Below, in pieces: positions 1,165 through 29,048 of a stretch of DNA of 32,000 nt; within the stretch, counting starts at the first letter, position 1; each line of letters starts with the position of its first letter. Source of the stretch: Candidatus Saccharimonadota bacterium. GTDB taxonomy: Bacteria; Patescibacteriota; Saccharimonadia; Saccharimonadales; Saccharimonadaceae. The notes under the pieces were generated by a model. That model was not told the DNA's origin, did no database searches, and was given only the letters and a program-made list of their open reading frames with translations. Location of the stretch: contig MKSO01000001.1 in assembly GCA_001897305.1 (NCBI GenBank), forward strand, positions 180,001 through 212,000. The letters are read 5' to 3'. Position numbers and translations under genes: made by a program.

Positions 1165-1938
1165 GTGGTAGGAAAAAATCGTAAACAGGGAACAGTATTC
1201 TTAAGCGCTGCTATTGGCGCTTTCTTGGTAGTTTTAGCTGCCCCTGTTGCGTATGCGTACACGGCAACCGAGTATCCTACAACAACCTCTTGGACTGTAG
1301 GCACAGTTGTGGCAGTCAACGGTGATGGCAGCCCTGTTGCTGCTTCAACTCAAGCAGCTAACTATATCGGCGTTGTTGCCAACCCTTCGACTGGCAAGAC
1401 TGTAGAGGTAGCAGGCACTGGGACAGTTTCGGTAGTCGTAACAGATAAGGACGGAGCTGTTGAAAGTGGTACTCGTTTGGGTCTTTCGTCGGTTGCTGGG
1501 GTAGCGAGCGCCTGGACAAACGGGACCGTCATTGGTGTTGCTCAAGAGGCTCCAAAAGAATGGAAACAAGCTACTCTTGACTCGTCGGCATCTATAAAAC
1601 TGGCATCGGTTAGAGTGCAACTACTCAGTGACGGCGCTTCAAGCGGCAGTTCTCCTATCAACCAGTTCTTCGCAGCCCTAGAGAAGACAGCTTCTGGAGT
1701 GGCGGGCAAACCGGTGGATACATGGAGGATTATTACAGCATTACTTATTGGGCTTGGCGGCCTTATTCTTGCTTTTGGACTACTGTTTATTTCAAGCCGA
1801 GAAAGCTTTTTCTCGATGGGTCGTAATCCAATGGCGAGTAAAATCATCATGCGTGGTTTATGGAAAATGGTAGCCTTGTCTGTTGGTATCCTTTGTATCA
1901 CGCTTACTGCGTCGTATTTGATTGTGAGGATTGCGTAG
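1165..1938 (+). CDS. Secreted or membrane-anchored hypothetical protein (257 aa). It has an N-terminal signal-like segment and two C-terminal TM helices. Its ectodomain is related to the C-terminal domain of the downstream giant protein.
   Basis: GTG start preceded by AGGTGA. The hydrophobic N-terminus is FLSAAIGAFLVVLAAPVAYA. The C-terminal hydrophobic stretches are ITALLIGLGGLILAFGLLFI and MVALSVGILCITLTASYLIV. The motif string YIGVVANPS..VEVAGTGTVSVVV..G..ESGTRLGLSSVAGVA....GTVIGVAQEA parallels LMGVVSTNPG..IALTGRVPVKV..GPIAVGDKVTISSVEGVG....GMIVGTAVES in the giant protein. Confidence 0.75.
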   Translation: MVGKNRKQGTVFLSAAIGAFLVVLAAPVAYAYTATEYPTTTSWTVGTVVAVNGDGSPVAASTQAANYIGVVANPSTGKTVEVAGTGTVSVVVTDKDGAVESGTRLGLSSVAGVASAWTNGTVIGVAQEAPKEWKQATLDSSASIKLASVRVQLLSDGASSGSSPINQFFAALEKTASGVAGKPVDTWRIITALLIGLGGLILAFGLLFISSRESFFSMGRNPMASKIIMRGLWKMVALSVGILCITLTASYLIVRIA

Positions 1939-1939
1939 T

Positions 1940-4900
1940 ATGAACCGCAAAGCCCTACTGCCAGTCTTCGTCTCGCTTGGTATTTTTGTTGTTATTTTTG
2001 GGGTTGTGGCGCTGTATCTTTGGAACGCAAGCCGGCAGGATGTAAAATCAACGGCCGACCAATCTGTCACTACAGTGAAGGGGCTTCAAGACCTTCAAGT
2101 TATTGACCAGCCTGTTTCACCAACGAAGCAAGTGATAGGTGGTGATTTAAAGGTAACGGGTAATGTCAGCATTATCGATGGTCTTTCAAGTTCATCACTA
2201 CAGCTTACACCGGTTACTAACCCAGCCGGCCTTCGTACCGGTCAGCTTTACACGAATACCGATAATAACCTGTACTACTACGACGGTAGGGTTTCATCGA
2301 ACATTTCAGGCGGTTTAGCGACTGCTCGAGTAGACATTAACCAACTTCAGCAAGAAACTGCTCAATTTCTGAACCGTCCAGAGGGTGTGCTCACACTACA
2401 GGGTCAGTCGGGTAATGTCGTACTGGCTGGTTCTGATGGAATTGCTATTTCTGGAACAACCATTACAAATAATGGCGTGCTTACTGTACAGGGTCGGGCT
2501 GGTAATGTTCAGTTCGTAAGCGGTAACGGCATCGATGTAACGGGAACAACCATTAATAATACAGGCGTCACAAGCTTGGGTGGTCAGAACGGCACTGTCG
2601 CTTTGGGCACTGGGCTCAGTATCAGCAACGGCACACTAGTGAACACAGGAATTACTCAACTTATCTCGGGTAGTTCCGATTTGATCGTTTCGAATGTAGG
2701 TGGCGGTGCCTACACAATTAGTTATGCCGGTTCCGGGGTGGGTGGTACGGTCGCTTTGGCACCAAATACATCCCAGGAAGATTCTAGTAATAATGCATCA
2801 ATCGCTTTTAACAAAACGGGTCTCGGCAACTTAATTCAAATTTCTACTGGTACTAATGCTTCGAATAAATTCGTCGTCGATCAGTCAGGTGCAATTATTA
2901 ACGGAAGCATTAACTTTAGCCAGGTAACAGGTGTGCCGAGTCTTGTTAATTCTATTGCGGGCCTTACGGGTACCGTAGGAGTTGGTGCTGGACTGGCTGT
3001 AAATGGTGGCCAGCTGGTTGCTACGACGGCTGTGAATAATCTTGTAGGAACTGCGAACCAAGTAAATGTATCGGGGAGCGGTACGCTTACTCTATCGTTG
3101 CCGCAAAGCATCGCGACGACATCTTCGCCGACTTTCGCCGGCTTGACGCTCACGAATGCACTAACTGTAGGGAACGGTGGTACTGGTGCATCGACTGCTG
3201 CGGGGGCTCGTACTAACCTAGGAGCGGCGGCAAGTGGTGTAAATAATGACATTACTTCGCTTACTGGTTTAACCACGGCGTTGTCGGTTGCCCAGGGTGG
3301 TATTGGTACGACGTCTCTTACTCAAAATGGTGTGCTTATTGGCAATGGCTCTGCCGCCGTGTCTACACTTAATGCGGCGAGTGCTAATCAGTGTCTTGTG
3401 TCTGGTGCGGGTGGCGTATTAAGCTTCCAAACCTGTCCGGGTGCAGGCAGCGTCACTAGCGTAAATGGTAAAAATGGTGCAGTGACGATAGCGGGCGTAG
3501 ACCCAACAAGTATTGATTCAACCGGTTCATCAATTGTTATTCGCGATGCCTCGTATACAACTAAGGGCTTAGCTTCATTTAATAGTACAAACTTCAGCGT
3601 ACTAAACGGAAGTGTTACTACTGCGCAAAATATTAATACAGGCGCTACTCCAACCTTTGCTGGCTTAAACCTCACTGCGGCATTAAGCACTGCTAACGGT
3701 GGAACGGGTCGTACGAGCTTTACGGCCAATTCGTTGCTCGTAGGCCAGGGCGGAGCTGCGCTTGGAACGGTTGGAACAACCATTGATGGGCAGTGTTTAG
3801 TGTCAGGAACTGGCGGGGTGCTTGGTTTTGCATCGTGTCCCGGTTCAAATGGCGTAGCTAGTTTGAACGGGCTTACAGGGGCGGTTAGCCTTAGCACAGT
3901 AACTGCTTCAAGCTTGTCGCAGACCGGGAATGTTATTACTGTTCGCGACGCAAGCGACACCATAAAGGGGCTTGCTGCATTTAATAGCAGCAACCTAGTC
4001 GTAACGAACGGGGTTGTAAATACTGCGCAAAATATTAATACGTCGGCTACGCCTACTTTCGCCGGACTTTCACTTGATACTGCGCTTGCGGTTACTAGTG
4101 GTGGTACTGGCCGTAATACGCTAACCGCTAATAGTCTTTTGATAGGAAATGGTACGGGCGCAGTGTCTATGTTAAGTGCGCCAACGGCCGGCTTGTGTCT
4201 TACTTCTGGCACTGGCGGGGTGTTGAGCTTCGTCACTTGTCCGGGTACTGCGGTTGTAAATACGCTTAACGGACAAAGTGGTGATATTACACTTACTGCT
4301 GCAGATCCGTCAAGTATTACTACGACCGGCGCAACTATCTCGATTCGTGACGCTTCGTATACAAATAAGGGCTTGGCTTCATTTAATGGCAGTAACTTCA
4401 GTGTTACAAATGGTGCTGTTAATACCATTCAGGATATCGCAACAACCGCAACGCCGACCTTTGAGGGCTTAACTCTTACCAGCGCTTTGGGTGTGACGAG
4501 TGGCGGTACTGGTGCAACGAATTTTGCGGCTAATAGCCTCCTTATTGGACAGGGGACTGCAGCGGTGAGTACATTAGGTACGTCGACGGCTGGTCAGTGT
4601 CTTATTTCTGGTACGGGTGGGTATCTATCGTTCTCGGCTTGCCCTGGAAGTAACGGCGTTGCCAGCCTTAATGGGCTGCTCGGAGCTTTGACGGTCAAGG
4701 GTGTGAGTGCCTCTAGCGTGCTTTCAACGGGTTCAACTATTACTATCGCTGATGCAACGGACACGGTAAAGGGCCTTGCCGCATTTAATAGCAGTAACCT
4801 AGTCGTAACAAACGGGGTTGTAAATACTGTTCAGGACATTTCAGTAAATGCGACACCAACTTTCGCCAGCCTTACGCTCTCTAGCCCGCTAGCTGTTAGT

Positions 4901-7900
4901 AGTGGCGGTACTGGTGCAAGTAGCTTTGCCGCAAACGCGGTACTTATCGGTAATGGTAGCTCTACGTTTGGTGCAGTTGCTGCTACGGCCGAAAACCAAT
5001 GTCTAATATCTGCAGCCGATGGCAGCTTAAGCTTTGTGACGTGTCCTGGTGCCGCCGGGGTAACCAGCTTGAATGGTCTTCAGGGCAGTCTTACGCTTAA
5101 CGCTGCTGACCCTAACAGTATTGCGAGCAGTGGTACGACCATTACTCTTCGTGATGCTACTAACTCTCGCAAGGGTCTTGCGTCATTCAATGCCGCGAAC
5201 TTCAGTGTTACCAGTGGTGCGGTAAACTTAGTTCAGGATATTGGCTCTGGCGCGACGCCTACTTTTGCAGGCCTAAGCCTAGGAAGCGCCTTGACGGTAG
5301 CAAATGGTGGTACTGGTGCAACCACAGCTGCTGACGCAAGGACAAACCTCGGGGCTGCGTCTAGTGGTGTTAACAACGACATCACCACACTTGGGTCGGT
5401 TACTTCGATTGCCTCTGGGTCTGGTCTAACAATAAATGCCACAAGCGGCACCCTCAGTCTGCAGGGTGCGGCAACGGTGCTTGCTCAAACTAACGGCACA
5501 AACACAACTCGGCTTGATTTTGCAAATCCAACAGCTGACGTAACGTATCGTCTACAAACTGCCGCCGCTGGTACGTATGAAGTATGTACGACCGCGGGTA
5601 ACTGTGTCGGTGTGGGCGGTGGCGTTACGACGACCGGTGGAACAATCGGCAAGCTTTCCCGTTTTGTCAGCGGCACTGCTATTGGCGACTCAATCATTAC
5701 GGATAATGGCTCAACGGTATCGATAGGGGGCGCCCTTAACGTTAATACTATTACGCCAACGGCGGCTGCTATTATTGGTGCGACTACCCAGTCGCTTACT
5801 CTGCAAGGTTCAACGACAAGTATTACAAGTACCGGCGCGGCTTCAACAAATACCCTCACGTTCGCAACTCCATCGGGCACGAACAAGACGATCACTATTC
5901 CAAACGCCAGCGGTACGGTTGCTATTTCAGCAAGTGGTCCATTAAGTCTTGACGCCAACGGTAACCTTTCGTGTGCCAGCTGTCTGACAAGTGGCGGCGG
6001 CGGTGGTGGTGCGACAGGTGTCTCAAGTGTTAATGGTATCACCGGTGCTGTTACCTTGGTGTCTAGTGACGCAAATTCACTGACGACGGCCGGTACTAGC
6101 ATTACTATTAACGATGCGACGGCAACAACTAAGGGTCTCGCTGCTTTTAATAGTAATAACTTGGTTGTTTCAAATGGCGTCGTAAACACCATCCAAGATA
6201 TTGGTACTGGTGCGACACCAACCTTTGCTAATATTAACCTTAGTTCGCCGTTGACAGTTGCGAATGGTGGTACGGGCCGTTCGAACTTGCCAAAGGGTCT
6301 CGTTATAGGCAACGGCACAGGTGCGGTCGATATCCTTGCTCCAACCGGTGCAAGTGAATGTTTGGCATCGGATTCAAGCAGTAACCTTGTGTTCGTAGCC
6401 TGCCCGGGTACGTCGGTTGTTAATTTCCTTAATGGGCTTAACGGTACGGTAACAATCGACACTGTATCGGCAAGTAGTCTTTCGACAAGTGGCAATAACA
6501 TTCGTATTCAAGACGCTACTTCGTCTATTAAGGGCTTGGCATCGTTCAACGCCTCAAACCTGACGGTGACAAATGGCAGCGTTAATACCGTTCAGGACAT
6601 TAGTACATCATCAACCCCATCATTTAACGGCCTTTCACTCGGTACAGCGCTAGGGGTTGCTAGTGGTGGTACGGGTTCAGCTACGGCTGCCGGTGCGCGC
6701 ACAAACCTGGGCGCGGCTGCTCGTGGTGCAAACAGCGACATTACGTCATTATCTGGCCTTACGACAGCTTTGTCGGTAGCCCAGGGTGGTACTGGTCAGT
6801 CTTCACTGACAGCAAACCGAGTGCTACTTGGTAACGGCACCTCTGGTATTGCAGTGAGTAACGCCGCAGGGGTTGGCCAATGTTTGGTAGGGAATGCAAG
6901 TGGTGCACCAAGTTTCCAAGCGTGCCCTGGCTCTGATGGCGTCCGTACCTTTAACAGCCTAAATGGGGATGTCACTCTTGATACTACATCGGCAAATAGC
7001 TTGGTAGTGAGCGGCAATAACATTCGCATTCAAGACGCAACCTCATCTATTAAGGGCTTGGCATCGTTTGACGGCACGAACCTTACTATTGTGAATGGTG
7101 CGGTTAATACGGCACAGAACATCACCACTAGTGCAACGCCAACCTTTGCTGGCTTGAACCTGACCACTGCCTTAGGTGTTGCGAGTGGTGGGACGGGCCG
7201 CTCAACACTTGCGACAAATGGTGTTGTTGTAGGTCAGGGTACAAGTGCCGTTACTACCGTCGGTACAAACACGGCGGGCCAGTGTCTTGTATCTGGCACT
7301 GGCGGGGCTTTGAGCTTTGCAAGCTGCCCTGGCTCTGGTGGTGTGGCAAGCCTCAATGGCTTGAACGGTGCTGTTACCATCGACACGGTGACTCCATCGA
7401 GTCTTTTGGTTAGTGGCAATAACATTCGCATTCAAGACGCAACTTCATCTATTAAAGGCTTGGCATCATTCAACACTGATAGTCTTACGGTTACAAATGG
7501 TAGCGTTTCAACTGTTCAAAGTATTAACACTACCGCAACGCCAACCTTTGCTGGTCTTACTCTGACAAGTCCGCTTGGCGTTGGCAGTGGCGGTACGGGC
7601 CGCTCGACACTTGCAGCGGGAAGCTTGCTTATAGGTAATGGCTCGGGCGCTATTTCTACACTTGGCACATCTGTAGCGGGTAAGTGTCTCGTCTCTGGTG
7701 CTAGTGGAACGCTTTCATTCCTCGACTGTCCAGGAACCGACGTTGTGAGTAGTTTGAACGGTGTGAGTGGCGCAGTTACGGTAACTGCTGTTGATCCAGC
7801 AAGCATCGACACTACAGGTAACACTATTACTGTTAAAGACGCTTCGTATACAACCAAAGGCCTGGCTTCGTTTAATGGTGGTAACTTTGTTGTTAGCAAT

Positions 7901-10900
7901 GGGGCGGTTAATACAATTCAGAACATCGCTACAACGTCGAGCCCAACTTTTGCCGGCCTAACGCTTTCAAGTGCGCTAGGGGTAGCAAATGGCGGTACTG
8001 GGGCTGGAAGTTTTGCAACTAACGGTATTCTCGTTGGACAAGGAACATCCGCTGTAACGACAGTCAGCACTACTACGGCCAACCAGTGTCTTGTTACGGG
8101 AACGGGTGGTGTTCTAACATTTGCAAGTTGTCCTGGTTCGGGCGGCGTCAGTAGCTTTAATGGCCTTACAGGTGCGGTAAATGTTGCGACGACAACCGCA
8201 AGCAGCCTCCTTACAAGTGGCAATACTGTCACTATTCGCGACGCAAGCGATACTATTAAGGGTCTCGCTTCCTTCAATTCAACCAACCTTACCGTCACAA
8301 GTGGCGTCGTAAATACGGTTCAAGATATAAGCACTGCATCTACGCCAACCTTTGCCGGCCTTACCCTAGGTAACGCGCTGAGTGTTGCTAACGGTGGTAC
8401 GGGTCAAACTACCCTCACTGCTAACCGCGTGCTTCTCGGTAATGGTACGTCTGGTGTGGCAGTGAGCAACGCCGCAGGGGCCGGACTTTGTCTTATTGGG
8501 AATGCGACCGGGGCACCAAGCTTCCAATCTTGTCCAATTGGTGGGAATATCTCATCTGGCACCTCTCAGACTGCTGGTGTTGTGGCGATGTTCGATAGTA
8601 CCGCAAACCAAATTACCGACTCAATCATCTCGCAGTCTGGTTCGGTTGTCTCTGTTGGCGGACAACTGAGTGCTACGACACTAAGTGGCAACGGTGCGGC
8701 GATCACTAACCTTAACGCTTCTAATATTGCCACCGGTACTGTTGCAAACGCTCGTCTTAGCGCCAATGTAACACTTCAGGGCAATAGCTTTAACGGTAAC
8801 AGCCAGTTGCTTAAGCTTGATAGCAGCGGTGCAACTACCCAAAACGGCCTTTGTCTTATGAGTACTGGCTCTGGTACGGGTACTGCTTTCCAGGCGTGCC
8901 CAGGTTCAAACGTAGCCGTAGGCGCAAACACTTCGCTGTCTAACCTTTCGAATGTTGCCATTAATGACATGCTTCTTCCGGGCGCGAGCAATTCTATCGA
9001 CATTGGTAGTACCACCTTGGCATTCCGCAACCTTTACTTGGCTGGTGCAGTAAGTGCGGCGGGCGCCATCAACGGCCTCACGCTTACTTCAAACTCGCTA
9101 CAGAGTGCTGGTGCTCTCAACCTTAGTGCGGGTGGAACAAACCAAGCGGTTACAATTGCTGGCAGCGGTAGTGGTGGAGTGACAATTAACCCAGGTACGG
9201 GGAGTATTACGCTCTCGGGCGTAACCTGTAATACCTCTGCTAACGGTGGAAAGCTTACCACTAATGCGTCGGGTATCTTGGGCTGTGCCGATGATATTGG
9301 CGGCGTCTCGGTTGTGGGTACTATTGACTCGCAGACGGCCAGCGCCAACGGTGCGGTTATTAATGGTAATACTATCTATTTGCAGACGGCGAGTTCAACG
9401 GCAACCGGGCTTGTAAGTACGGCTGCCCAAACGTTCGCTGGTAACAAAACATTTGCCGGAGCTACAACACTGCAGGGCGCAACAACAATGAGTGGATCGG
9501 TGACGATTGGCAGTCCATCGATGGGTGTTCTATACACCGATACGAGCGGTACTGTTCAAAAGGCGTATACATCAGGTGCAACGGTAGGTCAGTGCCTAGC
9601 TTATACTGCAACGAATACTCTTGGCTTCCAGAGCTGTGGCGGTGGCGGTGGGGGTGGAAATCCATTCCTTCAAGGCGGTAATGCCTTCAATGCAACAGCA
9701 ACACTCGGTGTGACAGATAACCAGGCGATAAATATTATTCAAAATAATCAAAATCGTATTGCCATGCCAAATGACGGCAACATCATCATAACGCCTATGA
9801 CTAACAAATTCGTTTTCATTAATACAACCGCCTCTGATAGTGATGCTGATTTGATTGTAAATGGTCGCGTTAAGTCATTGACTGGCTTTAAGGTGGGTAA
9901 CGTAAGCGGAATATCTATTGCGCAGTGTAGCGGATACATTCAGAATGCAGTTGTGAGTGGCGGTATTATTACCAATGGTAACTGTTCGAGCGGGGGTTCA
10001 GCGGGTCAGGCTCTTGTACAAGGTGGTAACGCCTTTAATGGGACGCTTACCATGGGAACGACAGACAACTTTGGTGTTAATATCGTAAAACAAGGCACCA
10101 CCATGATCGGTATAAGCCAGGACGGCAACATCGACTTCTCGCCAAGCGTTAATAAGTGGGTCCGTGTCGGCACTACTGATACTGATAGTACGTCACAATT
10201 TATCGTAGGTGGGCGTATCAAGTCGGGCACTGGTTTCAGGGTCGGTAACAATACGGGCATAGATCTTACATGTCAAAATGGTAACCAGACCTTGGGCGCG
10301 GTTCGTATTGCCGGTGGTATTATCTACCAAGCGCAGTGTGCCACCAACAACTCTGACCTTGCCGAGAATTACGCCTCACCACAGCAACTCGCTCCAGCCG
10401 AGATTGTCATGGCTGCTGGTACTTCTGCAACAACAGTGGTTCGCGCCACCGGAGAAGGTGCTCGCGAAAAACTTATGGGCGTTGTTTCGACTAACCCAGG
10501 CCAGACATTAGGTACCGAACAAGTACCAAACGGGTATCCAATTGCCCTAACCGGACGTGTTCCTGTGAAGGTAAACGGCGAGGGTGGCCCTATTGCAGTA
10601 GGTGACAAGGTGACTATCTCGAGTGTTGAAGGTGTCGGTAAGAAAGCTACAACCCCAGGTATGATCGTCGGTACCGCAGTTGAATCATTTGACGGCAACG
10701 GCCAAGGCTCTATTGAGGTCTTTGTAAACCTTATGTACTGGAGCCCTGTGGATGGTAATAACCTGCAGGCTCAGACAGGCACCTTTGGTTCACTAAATGT
10801 ATCTGGTAACACTACTTTGAACACCCTAACAGTTACTGGTGTAGCTACATTCCAGGCAAATATTGTCGTGAACGGACACATTATTACTGGCGGTGGTGCG

Positions 10901-11203
10901 CCAAACTACAGTGTCGGTGCATCGGCCGGCGCGGGTGCCCAGGTTGTCATTGACGGTAACGATACAGCGGGTACTATTAAAGTAACTACTGGTTCAGGTG
11001 CCAATGCAGGCAGCCTTGCGGATCTCGTCTTTAGTCACGCGTATGGTAAGGCACCAAAGGTGCTTATCACCGGCCAAGATGACGCAAGTGTAAACGCTCG
11101 TGTCTACCCATCGGGTAAATCAAGTAGCGGCTTCTCACTCGGTACATCTCAGACGTTAGCACCAAATACCACCTACTCATTTGACTACTTTATTGTTCAA
11201 TAG
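1940..11203 (+). CDS. Giant membrane-anchored surface protein (3,087 aa) with tail-fibre-like repeat architecture; putative adhesin or host-contact fibre
   Basis: An uninterrupted 9.26-kb ORF. ATG at 1940 follows GAGGA at a 9-nt spacing and lies 1 nt after the upstream stop. The N-terminal TM anchor is LLPVFVSLGIFVVIFGVVALYLW. About 11 repeat units of 134 aa each carry a C-x13-C-P-G loop. The motif ANGGTG..TAA.ARTNLGAA.SG.N.DIT occurs three times (nt ~3206, ~5336, ~6696). A G.G..ITNLNASNIATGTV.NARL motif and two QGGNAFN...LG.TDN modules are present. The protein is T/S/G/N/A-rich and low in charge. Confidence 0.9.
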   Translation: MNRKALLPVFVSLGIFVVIFGVVALYLWNASRQDVKSTADQSVTTVKGLQDLQVIDQPVSPTKQVIGGDLKVTGNVSIIDGLSSSSLQLTPVTNPAGLRTGQLYTNTDNNLYYYDGRVSSNISGGLATARVDINQLQQETAQFLNRPEGVLTLQGQSGNVVLAGSDGIAISGTTITNNGVLTVQGRAGNVQFVSGNGIDVTGTTINNTGVTSLGGQNGTVALGTGLSISNGTLVNTGITQLISGSSDLIVSNVGGGAYTISYAGSGVGGTVALAPNTSQEDSSNNASIAFNKTGLGNLIQISTGTNASNKFVVDQSGAIINGSINFSQVTGVPSLVNSIAGLTGTVGVGAGLAVNGGQLVATTAVNNLVGTANQVNVSGSGTLTLSLPQSIATTSSPTFAGLTLTNALTVGNGGTGASTAAGARTNLGAAASGVNNDITSLTGLTTALSVAQGGIGTTSLTQNGVLIGNGSAAVSTLNAASANQCLVSGAGGVLSFQTCPGAGSVTSVNGKNGAVTIAGVDPTSIDSTGSSIVIRDASYTTKGLASFNSTNFSVLNGSVTTAQNINTGATPTFAGLNLTAALSTANGGTGRTSFTANSLLVGQGGAALGTVGTTIDGQCLVSGTGGVLGFASCPGSNGVASLNGLTGAVSLSTVTASSLSQTGNVITVRDASDTIKGLAAFNSSNLVVTNGVVNTAQNINTSATPTFAGLSLDTALAVTSGGTGRNTLTANSLLIGNGTGAVSMLSAPTAGLCLTSGTGGVLSFVTCPGTAVVNTLNGQSGDITLTAADPSSITTTGATISIRDASYTNKGLASFNGSNFSVTNGAVNTIQDIATTATPTFEGLTLTSALGVTSGGTGATNFAANSLLIGQGTAAVSTLGTSTAGQCLISGTGGYLSFSACPGSNGVASLNGLLGALTVKGVSASSVLSTGSTITIADATDTVKGLAAFNSSNLVVTNGVVNTVQDISVNATPTFASLTLSSPLAVSSGGTGASSFAANAVLIGNGSSTFGAVAATAENQCLISAADGSLSFVTCPGAAGVTSLNGLQGSLTLNAADPNSIASSGTTITLRDATNSRKGLASFNAANFSVTSGAVNLVQDIGSGATPTFAGLSLGSALTVANGGTGATTAADARTNLGAASSGVNNDITTLGSVTSIASGSGLTINATSGTLSLQGAATVLAQTNGTNTTRLDFANPTADVTYRLQTAAAGTYEVCTTAGNCVGVGGGVTTTGGTIGKLSRFVSGTAIGDSIITDNGSTVSIGGALNVNTITPTAAAIIGATTQSLTLQGSTTSITSTGAASTNTLTFATPSGTNKTITIPNASGTVAISASGPLSLDANGNLSCASCLTSGGGGGGATGVSSVNGITGAVTLVSSDANSLTTAGTSITINDATATTKGLAAFNSNNLVVSNGVVNTIQDIGTGATPTFANINLSSPLTVANGGTGRSNLPKGLVIGNGTGAVDILAPTGASECLASDSSSNLVFVACPGTSVVNFLNGLNGTVTIDTVSASSLSTSGNNIRIQDATSSIKGLASFNASNLTVTNGSVNTVQDISTSSTPSFNGLSLGTALGVASGGTGSATAAGARTNLGAAARGANSDITSLSGLTTALSVAQGGTGQSSLTANRVLLGNGTSGIAVSNAAGVGQCLVGNASGAPSFQACPGSDGVRTFNSLNGDVTLDTTSANSLVVSGNNIRIQDATSSIKGLASFDGTNLTIVNGAVNTAQNITTSATPTFAGLNLTTALGVASGGTGRSTLATNGVVVGQGTSAVTTVGTNTAGQCLVSGTGGALSFASCPGSGGVASLNGLNGAVTIDTVTPSSLLVSGNNIRIQDATSSIKGLASFNTDSLTVTNGSVSTVQSINTTATPTFAGLTLTSPLGVGSGGTGRSTLAAGSLLIGNGSGAISTLGTSVAGKCLVSGASGTLSFLDCPGTDVVSSLNGVSGAVTVTAVDPASIDTTGNTITVKDASYTTKGLASFNGGNFVVSNGAVNTIQNIATTSSPTFAGLTLSSALGVANGGTGAGSFATNGILVGQGTSAVTTVSTTTANQCLVTGTGGVLTFASCPGSGGVSSFNGLTGAVNVATTTASSLLTSGNTVTIRDASDTIKGLASFNSTNLTVTSGVVNTVQDISTASTPTFAGLTLGNALSVANGGTGQTTLTANRVLLGNGTSGVAVSNAAGAGLCLIGNATGAPSFQSCPIGGNISSGTSQTAGVVAMFDSTANQITDSIISQSGSVVSVGGQLSATTLSGNGAAITNLNASNIATGTVANARLSANVTLQGNSFNGNSQLLKLDSSGATTQNGLCLMSTGSGTGTAFQACPGSNVAVGANTSLSNLSNVAINDMLLPGASNSIDIGSTTLAFRNLYLAGAVSAAGAINGLTLTSNSLQSAGALNLSAGGTNQAVTIAGSGSGGVTINPGTGSITLSGVTCNTSANGGKLTTNASGILGCADDIGGVSVVGTIDSQTASANGAVINGNTIYLQTASSTATGLVSTAAQTFAGNKTFAGATTLQGATTMSGSVTIGSPSMGVLYTDTSGTVQKAYTSGATVGQCLAYTATNTLGFQSCGGGGGGGNPFLQGGNAFNATATLGVTDNQAINIIQNNQNRIAMPNDGNIIITPMTNKFVFINTTASDSDADLIVNGRVKSLTGFKVGNVSGISIAQCSGYIQNAVVSGGIITNGNCSSGGSAGQALVQGGNAFNGTLTMGTTDNFGVNIVKQGTTMIGISQDGNIDFSPSVNKWVRVGTTDTDSTSQFIVGGRIKSGTGFRVGNNTGIDLTCQNGNQTLGAVRIAGGIIYQAQCATNNSDLAENYASPQQLAPAEIVMAAGTSATTVVRATGEGAREKLMGVVSTNPGQTLGTEQVPNGYPIALTGRVPVKVNGEGGPIAVGDKVTISSVEGVGKKATTPGMIVGTAVESFDGNGQGSIEVFVNLMYWSPVDGNNLQAQTGTFGSLNVSGNTTLNTLTVTGVATFQANIVVNGHIITGGGAPNYSVGASAGAGAQVVIDGNDTAGTIKVTTGSGANAGSLADLVFSHAYGKAPKVLITGQDDASVNARVYPSGKSSSGFSLGTSQTLAPNTTYSFDYFIVQ
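3120..5290 (+). repeat. Coding tandem repeat block 1 of the giant gene: 5 units with an exact 402-nt (134-aa) period
   Basis: The first Cys codon of the C-x13-CPG loop recurs at 3392, 3794, 4196, 4598 and 5000, exactly 402 nt apart each time. Units are diverged (not identical) at both amino-acid and DNA level. Block edges are approximate. Confidence 0.9.
6020..8535 (+). repeat. Coding tandem repeat block 2 of the giant gene: about 6 units (one of 522 nt, then a 402-nt period)
   Basis: Cys codons fall at 6359, 6881, 7283, 7685, 8087 and 8489. A ~55-nt stretch (ggcaataacattcg.attcaagacgc...ggcttggcatc) recurs at 6491, 7013 and 7415 with only a few substitutions. Block edges are approximate. 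Confidence 0.9.
9660..10360 (+). repeat. Two tandem ~116-aa modules (QGGNAFN..LG.TDN..I....G.....DGNI......NK.V...T.......F/L IV.GR.KS.TGF.VGN) near the C-terminus of the giant protein
   Basis: caaggcggtaatgcc at 9671 and caaggtggtaacgcc at 10019 are 348 nt apart. The two translated modules align along their whole length. Confidence 0.8.
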
Positions 11204-11301: not shown

Positions 11302-11805
11302 ATGGATTACAAGCAAGAGGCGGAACGTCCTTCTGGTGCAAGCGGCCCACGCAAAGCGGCTGCTAAGCAAAAAAGTATTAAAAAAGTTGTTACTATCGCC
11401 GTCATCAGCGTTGTACTCGTTGCTGCTCTTGCAGTAAGTACCGTACTTCTTCTGACTAACGCGGGTAGCTCTAAAAACGCGGCTATCGGCAAAGATGACT
11501 ACCAAGCGGTCTTCTTAACAAATGGCCAGGTATATTTCGGTAAGTTGCAAAACGCAACCGGTGAATACCTTAAGTTGACAGACATTTACTACCTTCAGGT
11601 AGATAGTGCCGTTCAGCAAGCTGGAAGCACCGAAAAGACTGCTAATAGTACCTCGTCAGACAGCAATGTCCAGCTTATTAAGCTTGGAAACGAATTGCAC
11701 GGTCCTCGCGATGAAATGCAGCTTAATAATACACAGGTACTCTTCTGGGAAAACCTAAAACCAGATAGCAAAGTATCTGAAGCTATCAAGAACTACAAGC
11801 AGTAG
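11302..11805 (+). CDS. Membrane-anchored hypothetical protein (167 aa)
   Basis: Strong Shine-Dalgarno sequence. A basic N-terminus is followed by one TM helix (VVTIAVISVVLVAALAVSTVLLL) and an extracytoplasmic domain (YQAVFLTNGQVYFGKL...YLKLTDIYYLQ). A clean intrinsic terminator follows. Confidence 0.7.
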   Translation: MDYKQEAERPSGASGPRKAAAKQKSIKKVVTIAVISVVLVAALAVSTVLLLTNAGSSKNAAIGKDDYQAVFLTNGQVYFGKLQNATGEYLKLTDIYYLQVDSAVQQAGSTEKTANSTSSDSNVQLIKLGNELHGPRDEMQLNNTQVLFWENLKPDSKVSEAIKNYKQ

Positions 11806-11826
11806 TTAGAATCTTAATATTCTAAA

Positions 11827-11857
11827 TCAAACCCCGTCTTTTGACGGGGTTTGATTT
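11827..11857 (+). terminator. Rho-independent terminator
   Basis: tcaaaccccgtc / tttt / gacggggtttga forms a perfect 12-bp stem, followed by a T-run. Confidence 0.85.
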
Positions 11858-11871
11858 ACGTAAAATGCTCA

Positions 11872-15721: not shown

Positions 15722-15727
15722 GCCTCT

Positions 15728-15736
15728 AGTGTAGCA
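15728..15736 (-). promoter_or_regulatory. Extended -10 (TGCTACACT on the minus strand) 6 nt upstream of the ROK ATG; leaderless-type promoter
   Basis: The minus strand reads TGC-TACACT-agaggc-ATG. There is no room for a functional Shine-Dalgarno sequence. Confidence 0.5.
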
Positions 15737-15750
15737 TGAACAATGCAGAT

Positions 15751-15901
15751 TTAGCTCCTAATTTGGTGGCAAGAGGATGGTCTTATATAAGCGACACATT
15801 CCGCAGCCTGAGTTGAGATGGGCGTAGAGACCCCATCGAAACCCAGCGCGAGGACCGTTCGCGTTGTAAGACCATCCTCTTGCCACCAAATTAGGAGTTA
15901 A
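15751..15901. repeat. Long-hairpin element, copy A (shorter, divergent): 31-bp perfect inverted arms around an 81-nt interior
   Basis: The left arm ctcctaatttggtggcaagaggatggtctta (15755-15785) is the exact reverse complement of 15867-15897. Pairing extends 3 bp further after one G/T mismatch. The interior contains TTCCGCAG, ATCGAAACC and GCGAGGAC, which also occur in copies B and C but in a different order. Confidence 0.7.
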
Positions 15902-19553: not shown

Positions 19554-19629
19554 TAATCGTTGAAACCCGGTGCGAAGCCAGTCTGAAAATGAATGATGGT
19601 TAGGTGTATTTCGTATATTCTTACAAATA

Positions 19630-24499: not shown

Positions 24500-24508
24500 A
24501 GTATATCA
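24500..24508 (-). promoter_or_regulatory. Extended -10 (TGATATACT on the minus strand) 7 nt upstream of the def ATG; leaderless-type promoter
   Basis: The minus strand reads TGA-TATACT-atggcca-ATG(def). Confidence 0.5.
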
Positions 24509-24519
24509 GAGGTAGCGGT

Positions 24520-24709
24520 GAGGCGGAAGAGGCGGCCGGAGCTCGAGCATAGCGCTTTGATGAAACCTAGCTATCGAACGGCGACTTCTTGGCGGAGCGA
24601 GGACTGTCTGAGCGCAGCGAGTTCCGCAGATCCCCAAGAAGGAGCCGAGATACAGGTAAGGCTTGAATCAACCGCGCTATGCTCGAGCTCCGGCCGCCTC
24701 TTCCGCCTC
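24520..24709 (+). repeat. Long-hairpin element, copy B: 36-bp perfect inverted arms, 118-nt structured interior and a 34-nt conserved core (core in + orientation)
   Basis: The arm gaggcggaagaggcggccggagctcgagcatagcgc (24520-24555) is the exact reverse complement of 24674-24709. Inner pairings are cttcttgg(24585-92)/ccaagaag(24634-41), cggc(24579-82)/gccg(24644-47) and tatc(24572-75)/gata(24649-52). The core agcgaggactgtctgagcgcagcgagttccgcag (24596-24629) matches the reverse complement of 28267-28300 at 34/34 positions. Confidence 0.85.
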
Positions 24710-24718
24710 TGCTACAAT
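24710..24718 (+). promoter_or_regulatory. Extended -10 (TGCTACAAT) 6 nt upstream of the ATG at 24725; leaderless-type promoter
   Basis: TGC-TACAAT-aggtat-ATG. It begins at the nucleotide immediately after the right arm of element B. Confidence 0.55.
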
Positions 24719-28175: not shown

Positions 28176-28184
28176 AGTATAGCA
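28176..28184 (-). promoter_or_regulatory. Extended -10 (TGCTATACT on the minus strand) 6 nt upstream of the priA ATG; leaderless-type promoter
   Basis: The minus strand reads TGC-TATACT-aaatat-ATG(priA). It is separated from the left arm of element C by 1 nt. Confidence 0.55.
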
Positions 28185-28185
28185 G

Positions 28186-28376
28186 TGAGCGTAAGGAGGC
28201 GGAGCGAGACTTTTTATATGCAGTTACCTCAAGCCTTGAGTGGCTGCGTGTTTTCTTCTTGAGACGCTGCGGAACTCGCTGCGCTCAGACAGTCCTCGCT
28301 TCGTCAGGAAGAAAACGCTTGCCACTCAGGTTTCGATAAAGCATATAAAAAGTCTCGCTCCGCCTCCTTACGCTCA
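28186..28376 (-). repeat. Long-hairpin element, copy C: 36-bp perfect inverted arms, 119-nt structured interior, with the same 34-nt core in the opposite orientation to copy B
   Basis: The arm tgagcgtaaggaggcggagcgagactttttatatgc (28186-28221) is the exact reverse complement of 28341-28376. Inner pairings are gagtggc(28238-44)/gccactc(28321-27), gttttcttc(28250-58)/gaagaaaac(28308-16) and gacg(28263-66)/cgtc(28302-05). The core lies at 28267-28300. The junction motifs TTTATCGAAACCT and AAGGCTTGA are shared with copy B. Confidence 0.85.
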
Positions 28377-28385
28377 TGCTACAAT
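28377..28385 (+). promoter_or_regulatory. Extended -10 (TGCTACAAT) 6 nt upstream of the ATG at 28392; leaderless-type promoter
   Basis: TGC-TACAAT-aaccat-ATG. It begins at the nucleotide immediately after the right arm of element C. Confidence 0.55.
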
Positions 28386-28391
28386 AACCAT

Positions 28392-29048
28392 ATGTATTTT
28401 GAGAGCCGAATTCAGGCTGGCCAGCAGTTAGCCCAGCAGCTTTTTGAGAAATATCGCTACGAAAACTGCGCCATTATTGCTTTAAGTGATGGCGGTGTTT
28501 TGGTAGGGGAGCAAATTGCCACGCAGCTTCACTGTATTTTAACGATGCTTTTAGTAGAAGATATTCCGGTGCCGGGTGAAAGTGTTAGCTTTGGCGGCGT
28601 GTCCCAAACGGGGCAATTCACGTATAACAGCGAGTTTTCTAGTGGGGAAATTGATGAGTATGCAACTGAGTTTCACGGCTACCTAGAAGAGCAAAAACGT
28701 GAGGCTTTCCAGCGCATCAATCGGCTTATTGGTGATGGCGGCTTAATTGATCGCGATTTGCTACGTGACCATACAATTATATTAGTGAACGATGGCTTCG
28801 CTGATACGACCGTTCTGGACGTAGCGCTCGATTTCCTTAAGCCGATACGTATTAATAGGCTTATTATTGCCGCGCCAGTTGCATCCGAGCAAGCGGTCGA
28901 CCGTTTGCACGTAGTGGCTGACGAGTTGCACATTCTTGATGTAAAGACGAATTTTTTCGATACCGACCATTACTATACCGACAATACAATTCCTACGCAC
29001 GAAGAGACGATCGATAAAATTAATAAGATTATCCTGAATTGGCGTTGA
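28392..29048 (+). CDS. Phosphoribosyltransferase-family protein (218 aa)
   Basis: The N-terminal F..R..AG..LA..L pattern and the hydrophobic-strand-plus-acidic loop TIILVNDGFADTTV resemble the PRPP-binding motif of type I PRTases, although the loop is degenerate (no TG). Confidence 0.7.
   Translation: MYFESRIQAGQQLAQQLFEKYRYENCAIIALSDGGVLVGEQIATQLHCILTMLLVEDIPVPGESVSFGGVSQTGQFTYNSEFSSGEIDEYATEFHGYLEEQKREAFQRINRLIGDGGLIDRDLLRDHTIILVNDGFADTTVLDVALDFLKPIRINRLIIAAPVASEQAVDRLHVVADELHILDVKTNFFDTDHYYTDNTIPTHEETIDKINKIILNWR

What the first reader, a model, noticed from the sequence alone, without database searches (positions are those of the whole stretch)
28186..28376. Copy C: compensatory helix changes relative to copy B support a selected secondary structure
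When copy C is reverse-complemented and aligned to copy B, the junctions and core align, but the sequence between them differs while staying self-complementary.
- Copy B pairs CTTCTTGG/CCAAGAAG, CGGC/GCCG and TATC/GATA.
- Copy C pairs GTTTTCTTC/GAAGAAAAC, GAGTGGC/GCCACTC and GACG/CGTC.

The equivalent positions are helical in both copies, built from different nucleotides. That is the classic signature of structure-level selection rather than of coding or simple sequence conservation.

The apical ~34-40 nt has little self-complementarity. This suggests an exposed recognition loop for a protein or for a base-pairing target.
Basis: seen in the sequence. Interest (0 to 1): 0.78.

Follow-up and report, generated by a model that had tools for sequence, protein, structure and literature searches.

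The report
Mobile hairpin element with conserved cap
Copy C is a real 191-base hairpin-forming repeat between two diverging genes of a Saccharibacteria genome. Its stems change freely but stay paired, and its tip is almost identical in bacteria from at least seven phyla and matches no catalogued RNA family.

Summary
Window 28186-28376 is a near-perfect 191-nt hairpin. On a five-copy consensus structure, 50 of 79 pairs keep pairing after changes on both sides (91% paired against 70% in shuffles, 0/500).

- The "open 34-nt loop" is a folded cap: helix GCG-A-GGAC/GUUCC-GC, a UGUYU bulge, tandem GA, and a small hairpin P that varies and covaries in other genomes.
- Perfect arms are also what arm-to-arm DNA conversion produces, so stem covariation alone does not prove RNA-level selection. 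Stem mismatches show no clear RNA strand signature.

The cap is found in more than 120 loci, all from MAGs, metagenomes or viral contigs. It always tops a hairpin whose arms are unrelated between families. No protein gene is linked to it. Rfam, phage and plasmid searches found nothing.

In related Saccharibacteria the same promoter gaps hold this element, a sister type (copy A), a plain hairpin or nothing. The inner 118 nt is inverted between species.

Best reading: a non-autonomous, mobile palindromic element whose conserved cap is recognised in the folded single strand. Whether that strand is ssDNA or RNA is unresolved. Function unproven.

The parts
28186..28376 (-). Copy C: whole hairpin element. 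The strand given is the one carrying the cap in the sense orientation used for copy B.
28186..28221 (.). Copy C outer arm, 36 nt, perfect inverted repeat of 28341-28376. The sequence is specific to this locus. Its outer ~25 nt are homologous to the stem of a plain hairpin at the same gap in relative L113.
28341..28376 (.). Copy C second outer arm.
28328..28340 (-). 5' junction box TTTATCGAAACCT (family consensus CTTTGNYGARACC).
   Evidence: Alignments.
28222..28237 (-). 3' junction box AAGGCTTGAGGTAACT (family consensus AWGGCTTGARNNAAC). It pairs with the 5' box, leaving a conserved bulged C.
28267..28300 (-). Conserved cap, 34 nt identical to copy B: A-GCG-A-GGAC-UGUCU-GA-[GC GCA GC]-GA-GUUCC-GC-AG.
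28278..28284 (-). Mini-hairpin P (GC-GCA-GC). It is replaced by 22 different hairpins of 7-24 nt in other loci.
28176..28184 (-). Extended -10 box TGCTATACT of priA, 6 nt before its ATG (leaderless). It lies one base (g28185) outside the left arm.
   Evidence: Read from the sequence; gene identity.
28377..28385 (+). Extended -10 box TGCTACAAT of the phosphoribosyltransferase gene, 6 nt before its ATG at 28392. It abuts the right arm.
   Evidence: Read from the sequence.
24520..24709 (+). Copy B: same family, cap on the + strand. Arms 24520-24555 / 24674-24709, cap 24596-24629. It lies between the def and FBP_C genes.
15751..15901 (+). Copy A: sister family (A-type) with 35-nt arms and a different conserved core (15792-15869). 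It lies between the ROK gene and an LPXTG-protein gene.
19558..19613 (+). Remnant: the 3' half of an A-type element downstream of infB. The element is whole at the same place in L113 (2179-2272).

Best explanation
Copy C is one copy of a non-autonomous, mobile palindromic DNA element.

**Architecture**
- An inner unit of about 118 nt: two conserved junction boxes, a free-to-vary middle stem, and a near-invariant 31-34-nt cap.
- Outer arms of 33-36 bp that are specific to each locus and perfectly complementary.

**Shown**
- The element is multicopy, non-coding, and present or absent at orthologous sites.
- Its inner part inverts between species.
- It decays and gets deleted.
- Its arms evolve in concert.

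**Inferred**
- The stems stay complementary for two reasons. The folded single strand (hairpin or cruciform) is the active form. Recombination or template switching between the arms copies each change to the other arm.
- The cap is the recognition or nucleation module for a trans-acting factor that is not encoded next to the element. The cap consists of helix H, a UGUYU bulge, tandem GA and mini-hairpin P, usually with a GNA triloop. The factor could be a transposase or nuclease elsewhere in the genome, or a conserved host protein.
- I lean to single-stranded DNA as the acting form for the window copies. These copies lie between outward promoters, tolerate either orientation, and have GCGNAGC-type mini-hairpins. 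Such mini-hairpins are exceptionally stable as DNA (my own knowledge of the Hirao et al. work).
- The gaps between divergent promoters are hot spots, perhaps because that DNA is negatively supercoiled and easily unpaired.
For: - **Real, extreme hairpins.**
- **Covariation.**
- **Multicopy and mobile-like.**
  - The cap pattern gave 109 loci in the genome scan. Many lie within 100 nt of contig ends, meaning a repeat broke the assembly.
  - Further variants came from metagenomes and 3 viral contigs.
- **Turnover at orthologous sites**.
  - The priA|PRT gap holds the C-type in the window, the A-type in L114, L117 and L119, plain hairpins in L113 and L115, and nothing in L116 and L118.
  - The def gap holds the B-type in the window, L113 and L114, and the A-type in L117 and L119.
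- **Inversion.** The inner unit is inverted in L113 and L114 relative to the window.
- **Concerted arms.** Arms are 26/36 identical to L113 with all differences mirrored. Codon position 3 identity is 0.50 and the inner unit is 99/118 identical.
- **Decay.** Half an A-type element is deleted at window 19558-19613.
- **No linked protein.** Neighbour clustering over 1192 ORFs gave only housekeeping families. There is no transposase or recombinase in the window.
- **No strand signature of RNA.**
- **Passenger in a larger element.** In the MAG MT5bin.1 the capped hairpin sits inside a palindromic repeat of about 340 nt ending in CTAG.
Against: - **No transposition mechanism is shown.** There is no clear target-site duplication: the only candidate, GC, is its own reverse complement. 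No partner enzyme was found.
- **The conservation pattern is the reverse of an ordinary MITE.** The cap is conserved and the terminal repeats are free.
- **Features pointing to a strand-specific single-strand fold, which could equally be RNA.**
  - Conserved asymmetric internal loops.
  - In many other phyla, a non-palindromic 3' module: a pyrimidine run that mirrors the 5' arm of an adjacent hairpin, 21 mirror against 8 direct, 17 ties.
  - Some CPR copies are preceded by an extended -10-like TGAGATTAT box (my reading).
- **Possible host function.** All three divergent gaps of the window are occupied, and plain hairpins recur at the same gap in relatives. That could mean a host function for hairpins there rather than selfish insertion.
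- **Arm constraint.** Arms at 72% identity are more conserved than synonymous sites at 50%, so they are not simply neutral.
Confidence: 0.5

Rival explanations
1. It is, or derives from, a structured non-coding RNA. The cap is a K-turn-like GA motif bound by a protein. The full-length form carries a 3' U.A-U triple-helix hairpin. The window copies would be transcribed by inward firing of the symmetric -10 boxes that flank them, or are dead palindromised copies of an RNA gene that has spread.
For: - Conserved asymmetric internal loops between freely covarying helices.
- P varies in length and sequence like a peripheral RNA helix.
- A strand-specific 3' module with mirror-repeat covariation between phyla.
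- A candidate extended -10 box just upstream of some CPR copies.
- TAGTAT and TATTGT read inward as -10-like hexamers 5 and 4 nt outside the two arms of copy C (read).
Against: - No Rfam family matches.
- No G.U excess.
- No orientation bias relative to genes.
- The inner unit is inverted between species.
- B and C lack the 3' module.
- GNA triloops are typical of DNA mini-hairpins rather than RNA.
- The K-turn would need a 5-nt bulge instead of the usual 3 nt.
- No expression data.
Confidence: 0.3
2. It is a host-selected DNA cruciform or RNA hairpin that insulates two back-to-back promoters. It would absorb supercoils or stop backward transcripts from symmetric -10 elements. The cap would be incidental.
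For: - All three divergent gaps in the window carry a long hairpin, each directly against or within ~40 nt of a -10 box.
- 6 of 8 related genomes have some hairpin in the priA|PRT gap, two of them without any conserved cap.
- Orientation does not matter.
Against: - Outside Saccharibacteria the capped hairpins lie mostly in convergent or tandem gaps: 20 convergent, 24 tandem, 4 divergent.
- This idea does not explain a cap that is nearly invariant across phyla.
- Relatives L116 and L118 do without any hairpin.
Confidence: 0.12
3. It is a phase-variable invertible switch (inverton): 33-36-bp inverted repeats flipped by an invertase to switch the two neighbouring genes.
For: - Perfect inverted repeats flank a 118-bp segment in a promoter region.
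- The segment has opposite orientation in L113 and L114 compared with the window.
Against: - Five independent assemblies of this species all have the same orientation for B and C (L001-L003, L127, L128).
- There is no recombinase gene in the window.
- Both flanking promoters lie outside the repeats.
- The inner segment is itself almost palindromic, so flipping changes very little.
Confidence: 0.04
4. It is a chance palindrome, an ordinary terminator or an assembly artefact.
For: - All 109 genome hits are MAGs.
- Palindromic artefacts do occur at contig ends.
Against: - The same sequence occurs in many independent assemblies, including contigs of 0.9-1.3 Mb and closed long-read chromosomes.
- Orthologous copies have diverged by substitution and remain paired.
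- There is no T-run after the hairpin, and it lies between gene starts.
- Folding z-scores are about -15.
Confidence: 0.02

Closest known systems
REP / BIME / REPIN elements (mobilised by RAYT, also called TnpA-REP)
   Same: - Short, non-coding, intergenic, multicopy.
- They form hairpins.
- Stems are kept paired by compensatory change.
- No transposase inside; they are thought to act as folded single strands.
   Different: - REPs keep the stem sequence, with a GTAG or CGTC tag, and vary the loop. Here the stems are free and the tip is conserved.
- No GTAG or CGTC tag at the element ends.
- The cap is shared across phyla, whereas REP families are species-specific.
- No RAYT gene was seen, but only 32 kb was visible.
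Bacterial MITEs (for example Correia, ERIC, RUP, Nezha)
   Same: - 100-350 bp, non-autonomous.
- Inverted termini.
- Insertion polymorphism between strains.
- They break assemblies.
   Different: - The terminal arms are not conserved between copies in this genome; only the inner junction boxes are.
- No demonstrable target-site duplication.
- The same cap is embedded in unrelated arm families.
Rolling-circle origins, CRESS-virus origins and other HUH-nuclease sites (conserved loop on a variable stem)
   Same: - The pattern "variable stem, invariant tip".
- Recognition of a hairpin extruded from DNA.
   Different: - Those loops are about 9 nt with a nick site, next to a Rep gene, on plasmids or viruses.
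- Here the tip is a structured module of about 31 nt, chromosomal, multicopy, with no Rep gene nearby.
- Cleavage is untested.
Integron attC sites
   Same: Structure rather than sequence is conserved, and they are recognised as a folded single DNA strand.
   Different: - attC keeps its R''/R' boxes at the base and varies the tip, the opposite layout.
- attC follows cassette ORFs next to intI.
- None of this is seen here.
K-turn / box C/D-type GA motifs
   Same: The cap has a Watson-Crick stem closed by C-G, a bulge, then GA opposite GA, then a second helix.
   Different: - The bulge is 5 nt, not 3.
- There is no evidence of RNA or of an L7Ae-type protein.
- This is a resemblance by sequence logic only.
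Invertons (fimS-like switches)
   Same: Inverted repeats around a short segment in a promoter region, with both orientations seen between species.
   Different: - No flipping within the species.
- No invertase gene.
- The promoters lie outside the repeats.

Membership tests
REP / REPIN | Palindromic unit tagged by GTAG or CGTC at one end. | tested here: not met
   The ends of B (GAGGCGG.../...CCGCCTC) and C (TGAGCG.../...CGCTCA) carry no tag. The only CTAC nearby belongs to the flanking TGCTACAAT -10 box. The feature definition comes from the PMC3733652 abstract.
REP / REPIN | The same stem sequence repeated at many loci of one genome. | tested here: not met
   The outer arms of A, B and C share no similarity.
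REP / REPIN | A RAYT (Y1 transposase) gene in the genome. | not testable with these tools
   Only the 32-kb window and 20-kb loci could be read. None was found in the window.
MITE | Terminal inverted repeats conserved among copies. | tested here: inconclusive
   The outer arms are not conserved. The inner junction boxes (CTTTGNYGARACC / GGCTTGARNNAAC) are conserved in 5 of 5 copies and could be the true termini.
MITE | Target-site duplication. | tested here: inconclusive
   The inner unit is flanked by GC...GC in 4 of 5 copies, but GC is its own reverse complement. There is no direct repeat outside the arms.
MITE | Small, non-coding, multicopy, with presence/absence at orthologous sites. | tested here: met
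Integron attC | R''/R' core sites (RYYYAAC / GTTRRRY) at the base, downstream of cassette ORFs, with intI nearby. | tested here: not met
   No such boxes at the ends. The element lies between two gene starts. No integrase in the window.
Inverton | Both orientations within one population, and an invertase gene. | tested here: not met
   Same orientation in 5 assemblies. No recombinase in the window.
Any Rfam 15 family | Score at or above the family's gathering threshold. | tested here: not met
   Nothing reaches the gathering threshold in the window. In 24 loci that carry the element, the only matches at threshold are unrelated RNAs elsewhere in three of them: Cobalamin, lysM-TM7 and the L10 leader. 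E-value mode gives only generic long-hairpin miRNA models far below their thresholds.
Intrinsic terminator | GC-rich hairpin followed by a T-run at the 3' end of a gene. | tested here: not met
   No T-run follows the hairpin, and it lies between two gene starts. The scan finds no terminator there.
Hammerhead ribozyme | CUGANGA ... GAAA core at a three-way junction. | tested here: not met
   The cap reads CUGUYUGA-[P]-GAG at a two-way junction. The A-type reads CUGAGUUGAG...CGAAAC with no stem I. No Rfam hammerhead hit even at E <= 10.
K-turn | C-stem, 3-nt bulge, tandem sheared G.A/A.G, NC-stem. | tested here: inconclusive
   The sequence fits except for a 5-nt bulge. The NC-stem (P) covaries. 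Pairing geometry cannot be tested here.
tRNA / tmRNA-like | Cloverleaf detected by ARAGORN. | tested here: not met

The most novel reading that the evidence does not exclude
The cap GAGGAC-UGUYU-GA-[hairpin]-GA-GUUCCGCAG, together with the downstream mirror-repeat (triple-helix-like) hairpin seen in other phyla, may define an undescribed cross-phylum class of folded nucleic acid. It could be a new structured RNA or RNP, possibly catalytic. It could instead be the recognition end of an unknown single-strand DNA mobilisation system whose enzyme is encoded elsewhere. This class has spread horizontally through Proteobacteria, Nitrospirota, Bacteroidota, Bacillota, Spirochaetota, Desulfobacterota and Patescibacteria.
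Probability: 0.3. Interest if true: 0.85.

Novelty: new variant of a known kind. Interest (0 to 1): 0.64.

Why it matters
**The conservation is unusual.** A module of about 31 nt, almost identical in at least seven bacterial phyla, is conserved to a degree normally seen only in rRNA, tRNA or ribozyme cores. Yet it is absent from Rfam 15, from about 50,000 phage records and from about 72,000 plasmid records. It always sits on top of hairpins with unrelated stems.

**If the cap is a recognition site,** it points to an unknown and very widespread partner: a mobilising enzyme or a conserved host factor.

**If it is an RNA,** it is a new structured class that includes streamlined CPR genomes.

**Locally,** the elements occupy every back-to-back promoter gap in the window, in a 1-Mb genome that uses leaderless mRNAs. 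This makes them a handle on promoter architecture and on how palindromes survive and evolve in concert in such genomes.

**For the scan,** the result is a caution. Compensatory changes in a DNA palindrome do not by themselves show RNA-level selection.

Tried and rejected
**Database and literature searches**
- Rfam at gathering and E-value thresholds on the window and 24 loci found nothing at the elements.
- ARAGORN found no tRNA or tmRNA at the elements.
- BLAST of the cap against plasmids and phages gave no match.
- The exact cap pattern was absent from viral contigs. A gapped pattern then found 3 contigs, all ordinary full-length copies.
- Literature searches for cap substrings and related strings, and three keyword searches, found no description.

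**Search for a partner protein**
- 1192 neighbouring ORFs were clustered. The recurrent families are ABC ATPases, CBS-domain proteins and enoyl-CoA hydratases; there are no transposases.
- Pfam on 20 window proteins gave housekeeping genes only.

**Ideas considered and dropped**
- Inverton: same orientation in 5 assemblies.
- attC, REPIN, terminator, hammerhead: defining features not met.
- Antisense-target loop: no complementary site in the window.
- CRISPR-spacer-like arms: not tested against viral collections. The arms turned out to be partly orthologous between species, which argues against acquired spacers.
- Copy A as a circular permutation of the B/C cap: the shared GCGAGGAC / TTCCGCAG strings are not conserved in other A-type copies. 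I keep only \"sister family with a similar UGA-[hairpin]-GA tip\".

**A slip on my side.** My first mismatch search of the window failed because I wrote 12 Ns instead of 11.

Full report
**What is in the window**

Window 28186-28376 is a 191-nt hairpin. Two 36-nt arms are 100% complementary and enclose 119 nt. As RNA it folds at -120 to -123 kcal/mol on either strand (z = -14 to -16). As DNA it folds at -73 kcal/mol (z = -13.5). No shuffle does as well.

Copy B (24520-24709) has the same build, 36-nt perfect arms around 118 nt. Copy A (15751-15901) has 35-nt arms around 81 nt.

Copy C reverse-complemented aligns with B over the inner part. A 33-nt pattern is matched exactly in both copies, at 28267-28299 (minus strand) and 24597-24629 (plus strand); chance expectation is 0. 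The flanking base extends the identity to 34 nt. The outer arms share nothing.

**Setting**

The window comes from Candidatus Saccharibacteria bacterium 47-87. This ~1-Mb genome has been seen in many assemblies. The neighbouring genes are housekeeping genes: def, fmt, priA, recJ, infB, S1 and a phosphoribosyltransferase.

The genes flanking B and C start 6-7 nt after extended -10 boxes, such as TGCTACAAT-N6-ATG. They therefore appear to be leaderless (read). The boxes abut the arms, sit one base away, or, for the def promoter left of B, sit 11 nt away. The window has exactly three divergent gene gaps, and each holds one of the three elements.

**Covariation**

Five B/C-type copies were compared: window B and C, L113, L114 and L097. 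RNAalifold gives one consensus hairpin of 79 pairs, and 50 of these have changes on both sides with pairing kept.

| Measure | Observed | Control |
|---|---|---|
| Cells paired | 91.2% | 70.3% in shuffles (0/500 reach it) |
| Compensated pairs | 50 | 24.9 in shuffles |
| Cells paired, partners slid 1-3 columns | 91.2% | 39-45% |

Between B and C alone, 40 pairs are the same, 23 are changed on both sides and 1 on one side.

The copies share these conserved parts:
- junction box CTTTGNYGARACC and its partner GGCTTGARNNAAC;
- a short stem TTCYTGG/CCAAGAA;
- the cap.

**The cap is widespread**

A scan of one genome per GTDB species with GAGGACNGTCTGNNNNCAGCGAGTTCC found 109 loci. By record title they include:
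- Gamma-, Beta- and Alphaproteobacteria;
- Nitrospirales;
- Bacteroidota (Polaribacter, Barnesiella, Prevotella);
- Lachnospiraceae;
- Spirochaetota;
- Desulfobulbia;
- Saccharibacteria.

All of them are MAGs. Many hits lie within 100 nt of a contig end, as a repeat that breaks assembly would. A metagenome scan added CPR variants, and a gapped pattern found 3 viral contigs.

In every case the cap tops a hairpin. In 50 non-redundant arm families, own-arm complementarity averages 18.1. Arms taken from different families score 6.8 +/- 1.5.

**Anatomy of the cap**

Variants show that the middle of the cap is a small hairpin P of variable length and sequence. There are 22 distinct forms:
- stems such as gc, gcgc, gccc, gccattg and gcgatc;
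- loops that are mostly GCA or GAA.

The cap therefore reads GCG-A-GGAC / UGUYU / GA-[P]-GA / GUUCC-GC-AG. It resembles a K-turn-type GA motif with an over-long bulge; that is my inference. GC-GNA-GC is also the classic very stable DNA mini-hairpin; that is my own knowledge.

**Turnover at orthologous sites**

| Gap | Window | L113 | L114 | L115 | L116 | L117 | L118 | L119 |
|---|---|---|---|---|---|---|---|---|
| priA\|PRT | C-type | plain 57-nt hairpin | A-type | plain hairpin | none | A-type | none | A-type |
| def gap | B-type | B-type | B-type | no element detected | no element detected | A-type | no element detected | A-type |

In this table, "none" means the gap sequence was read and holds no hairpin. 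"No element detected" means only that the profile search found neither type there.

- The stem of the plain hairpin in L113 is homologous to the outer ~25 nt of C's arms.
- In L113 and L114 the inner 118 nt is inverted relative to window B.
- The window and L113 arms are 26/36 identical, and every difference is mirrored on the other arm, so both stay perfect.
- For comparison, codon position 3 of the neighbouring gene is 50% identical and the inner unit is 99/118 identical.
- Five assemblies of the window species show the same orientation. This is not a fast switch.
- Downstream of infB, L113 has a whole A-type element with imperfect arms. The window keeps only its 3' half.

Taken together, these points show that the elements insert or are replaced, invert, decay and get deleted.

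**RNA or DNA?**

Against an RNA-specific fold:
- G.T against A.C mismatches on the cap-sense strand are 97 to 71, and per hairpin 28 to 29.
- In tandem gene gaps the orientation splits 14 to 10.
- The window copies lie between outward-pointing promoters.
- No Rfam family matches.

For a strand-specific single-strand fold:
- The internal loops are conserved and asymmetric.
- Many non-Saccharibacteria copies carry a non-palindromic 3' module. It is a pyrimidine run that mirrors the 5' arm of an adjacent hairpin, which would allow a U.A-U or T.A-T triplex. The count is 21 mirror, 8 direct and 17 ties, so this is a weak test.
- A GC-rich hairpin often follows that module.

No conserved protein gene lies nearby.

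**Conclusion**

Two processes can do this, and they cannot be separated here: selection on a folded single strand, and mechanical homogenisation of inverted repeats.

The most economical account is a non-autonomous mobile palindromic element whose cap is the recognised part. I put this at about 0.5, with an RNA-gene origin at about 0.3 and a promoter-insulator role at about 0.1.

The element fails the defining tests for REP/REPIN, attC, inverton, terminator and hammerhead. It is only loosely MITE-like. The cap family appears undescribed in the sources I could search.

Noticed in passing
Window 15751-15901; L113 2179-2272; L114 9868-9970; L117 7779-7880 and 9870-9972; L119 7099-7178 and 9877-9968: A second hairpin family (A-type) has its own conserved core, CAGCCYGAGUUGARAUGGGCGYAGAGRCCCCAUYGAAACCCRGCGCGARG. 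Its Y and R positions covary. It occupies the same gaps as the B/C-type in related genomes, and in both orientations.
   Followed up: partly
Window 19558-19613: Truncated remnant (3' half) of an A-type element between infB and its terminator. The whole element, with imperfect arms, is at the orthologous site in L113.
   Followed up: yes
For example L010, L016-L018, L022, L058, L094, L103, L120-L126, L133 and L135, 20-60 nt downstream of the capped hairpin: A conserved 3' module. A pyrimidine run (such as CCTTTCTTTTGG) mirrors the 5' arm of the next hairpin (CCTTTTCTTTGG...CAAAGAAAAGG), which is compatible with an intramolecular triple helix. It changes in step between phyla and is often followed by a GC-rich hairpin ending GAAA. 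Window copies B and C lack it.
   Followed up: partly
Window 24500-24508, 24710-24718, 28176-28184, 28377-28385, 15725-15733: Genes start 6-7 nt after extended -10 boxes (TGnTAnAnT), so the mRNAs appear to be leaderless. No -35-like hexamer is evident. The paired boxes on either side of a gap form an inverted repeat themselves.
   Followed up: partly
Window 1931-11203: A 3090-aa ORF containing about 11 tandem 402-nt (134-aa) repeats at 60-75% identity. It is probably a giant surface protein.
   Followed up: no
L006, L011, L013, L020, L028, L033 and other contigs of MAG MT5bin.1: The capped hairpin lies inside a larger palindromic repeat of about 340 nt, whose ends read CTAGAGTTTAGAG...CTCTAAACTCTAG. 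More than 30 contigs of this MAG end in it. This suggests the cap can ride as a passenger in a MITE of another kind.
   Followed up: partly
All loci: Every one of the 109 genome hits is a MAG. There are no isolate genomes, and nothing in about 72,000 plasmids or about 50,000 phages. This may reflect uncultured host lineages, or cap variants in isolates that an exact pattern misses.
   Followed up: no
L053, L061, L076, L083, L088, L133 (proteobacterial type): The internal loop below the cap is made of the same string on both strands (CCGAGCAGCGC ... GAGCAGCGCAGGGAA). The two strands can pair with each other through A.G and A.A mismatches. A small CCCGAAGGG-type hairpin follows.
   Followed up: no
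L123 5507-5556 and 5658-5733; L130 13189-13244 and 13349-13427; L132 6340-6435 and 6514-6634; L135 119-163 and 261-310: Capped hairpins often come in head-to-head pairs 50-200 nt apart, with one copy more diverged than the other.
   Followed up: no
L005, L016-L018 and other Nitrospirales loci: These loci hold many other short hairpin repeats of the form CTGTCATTCCGAGCAACGCGAGGAATC or CTGGATTCCCGA...TCGGGAATGACAG. Their GAGC-NNN-GCGA loops recall the cap. A relationship is possible but was not tested.
   Followed up: no
Window 11823-11858: A 16-bp perfect hairpin with a 4-nt loop after the ORF ending at 11805. It looks like an ordinary terminator.
   Followed up: no
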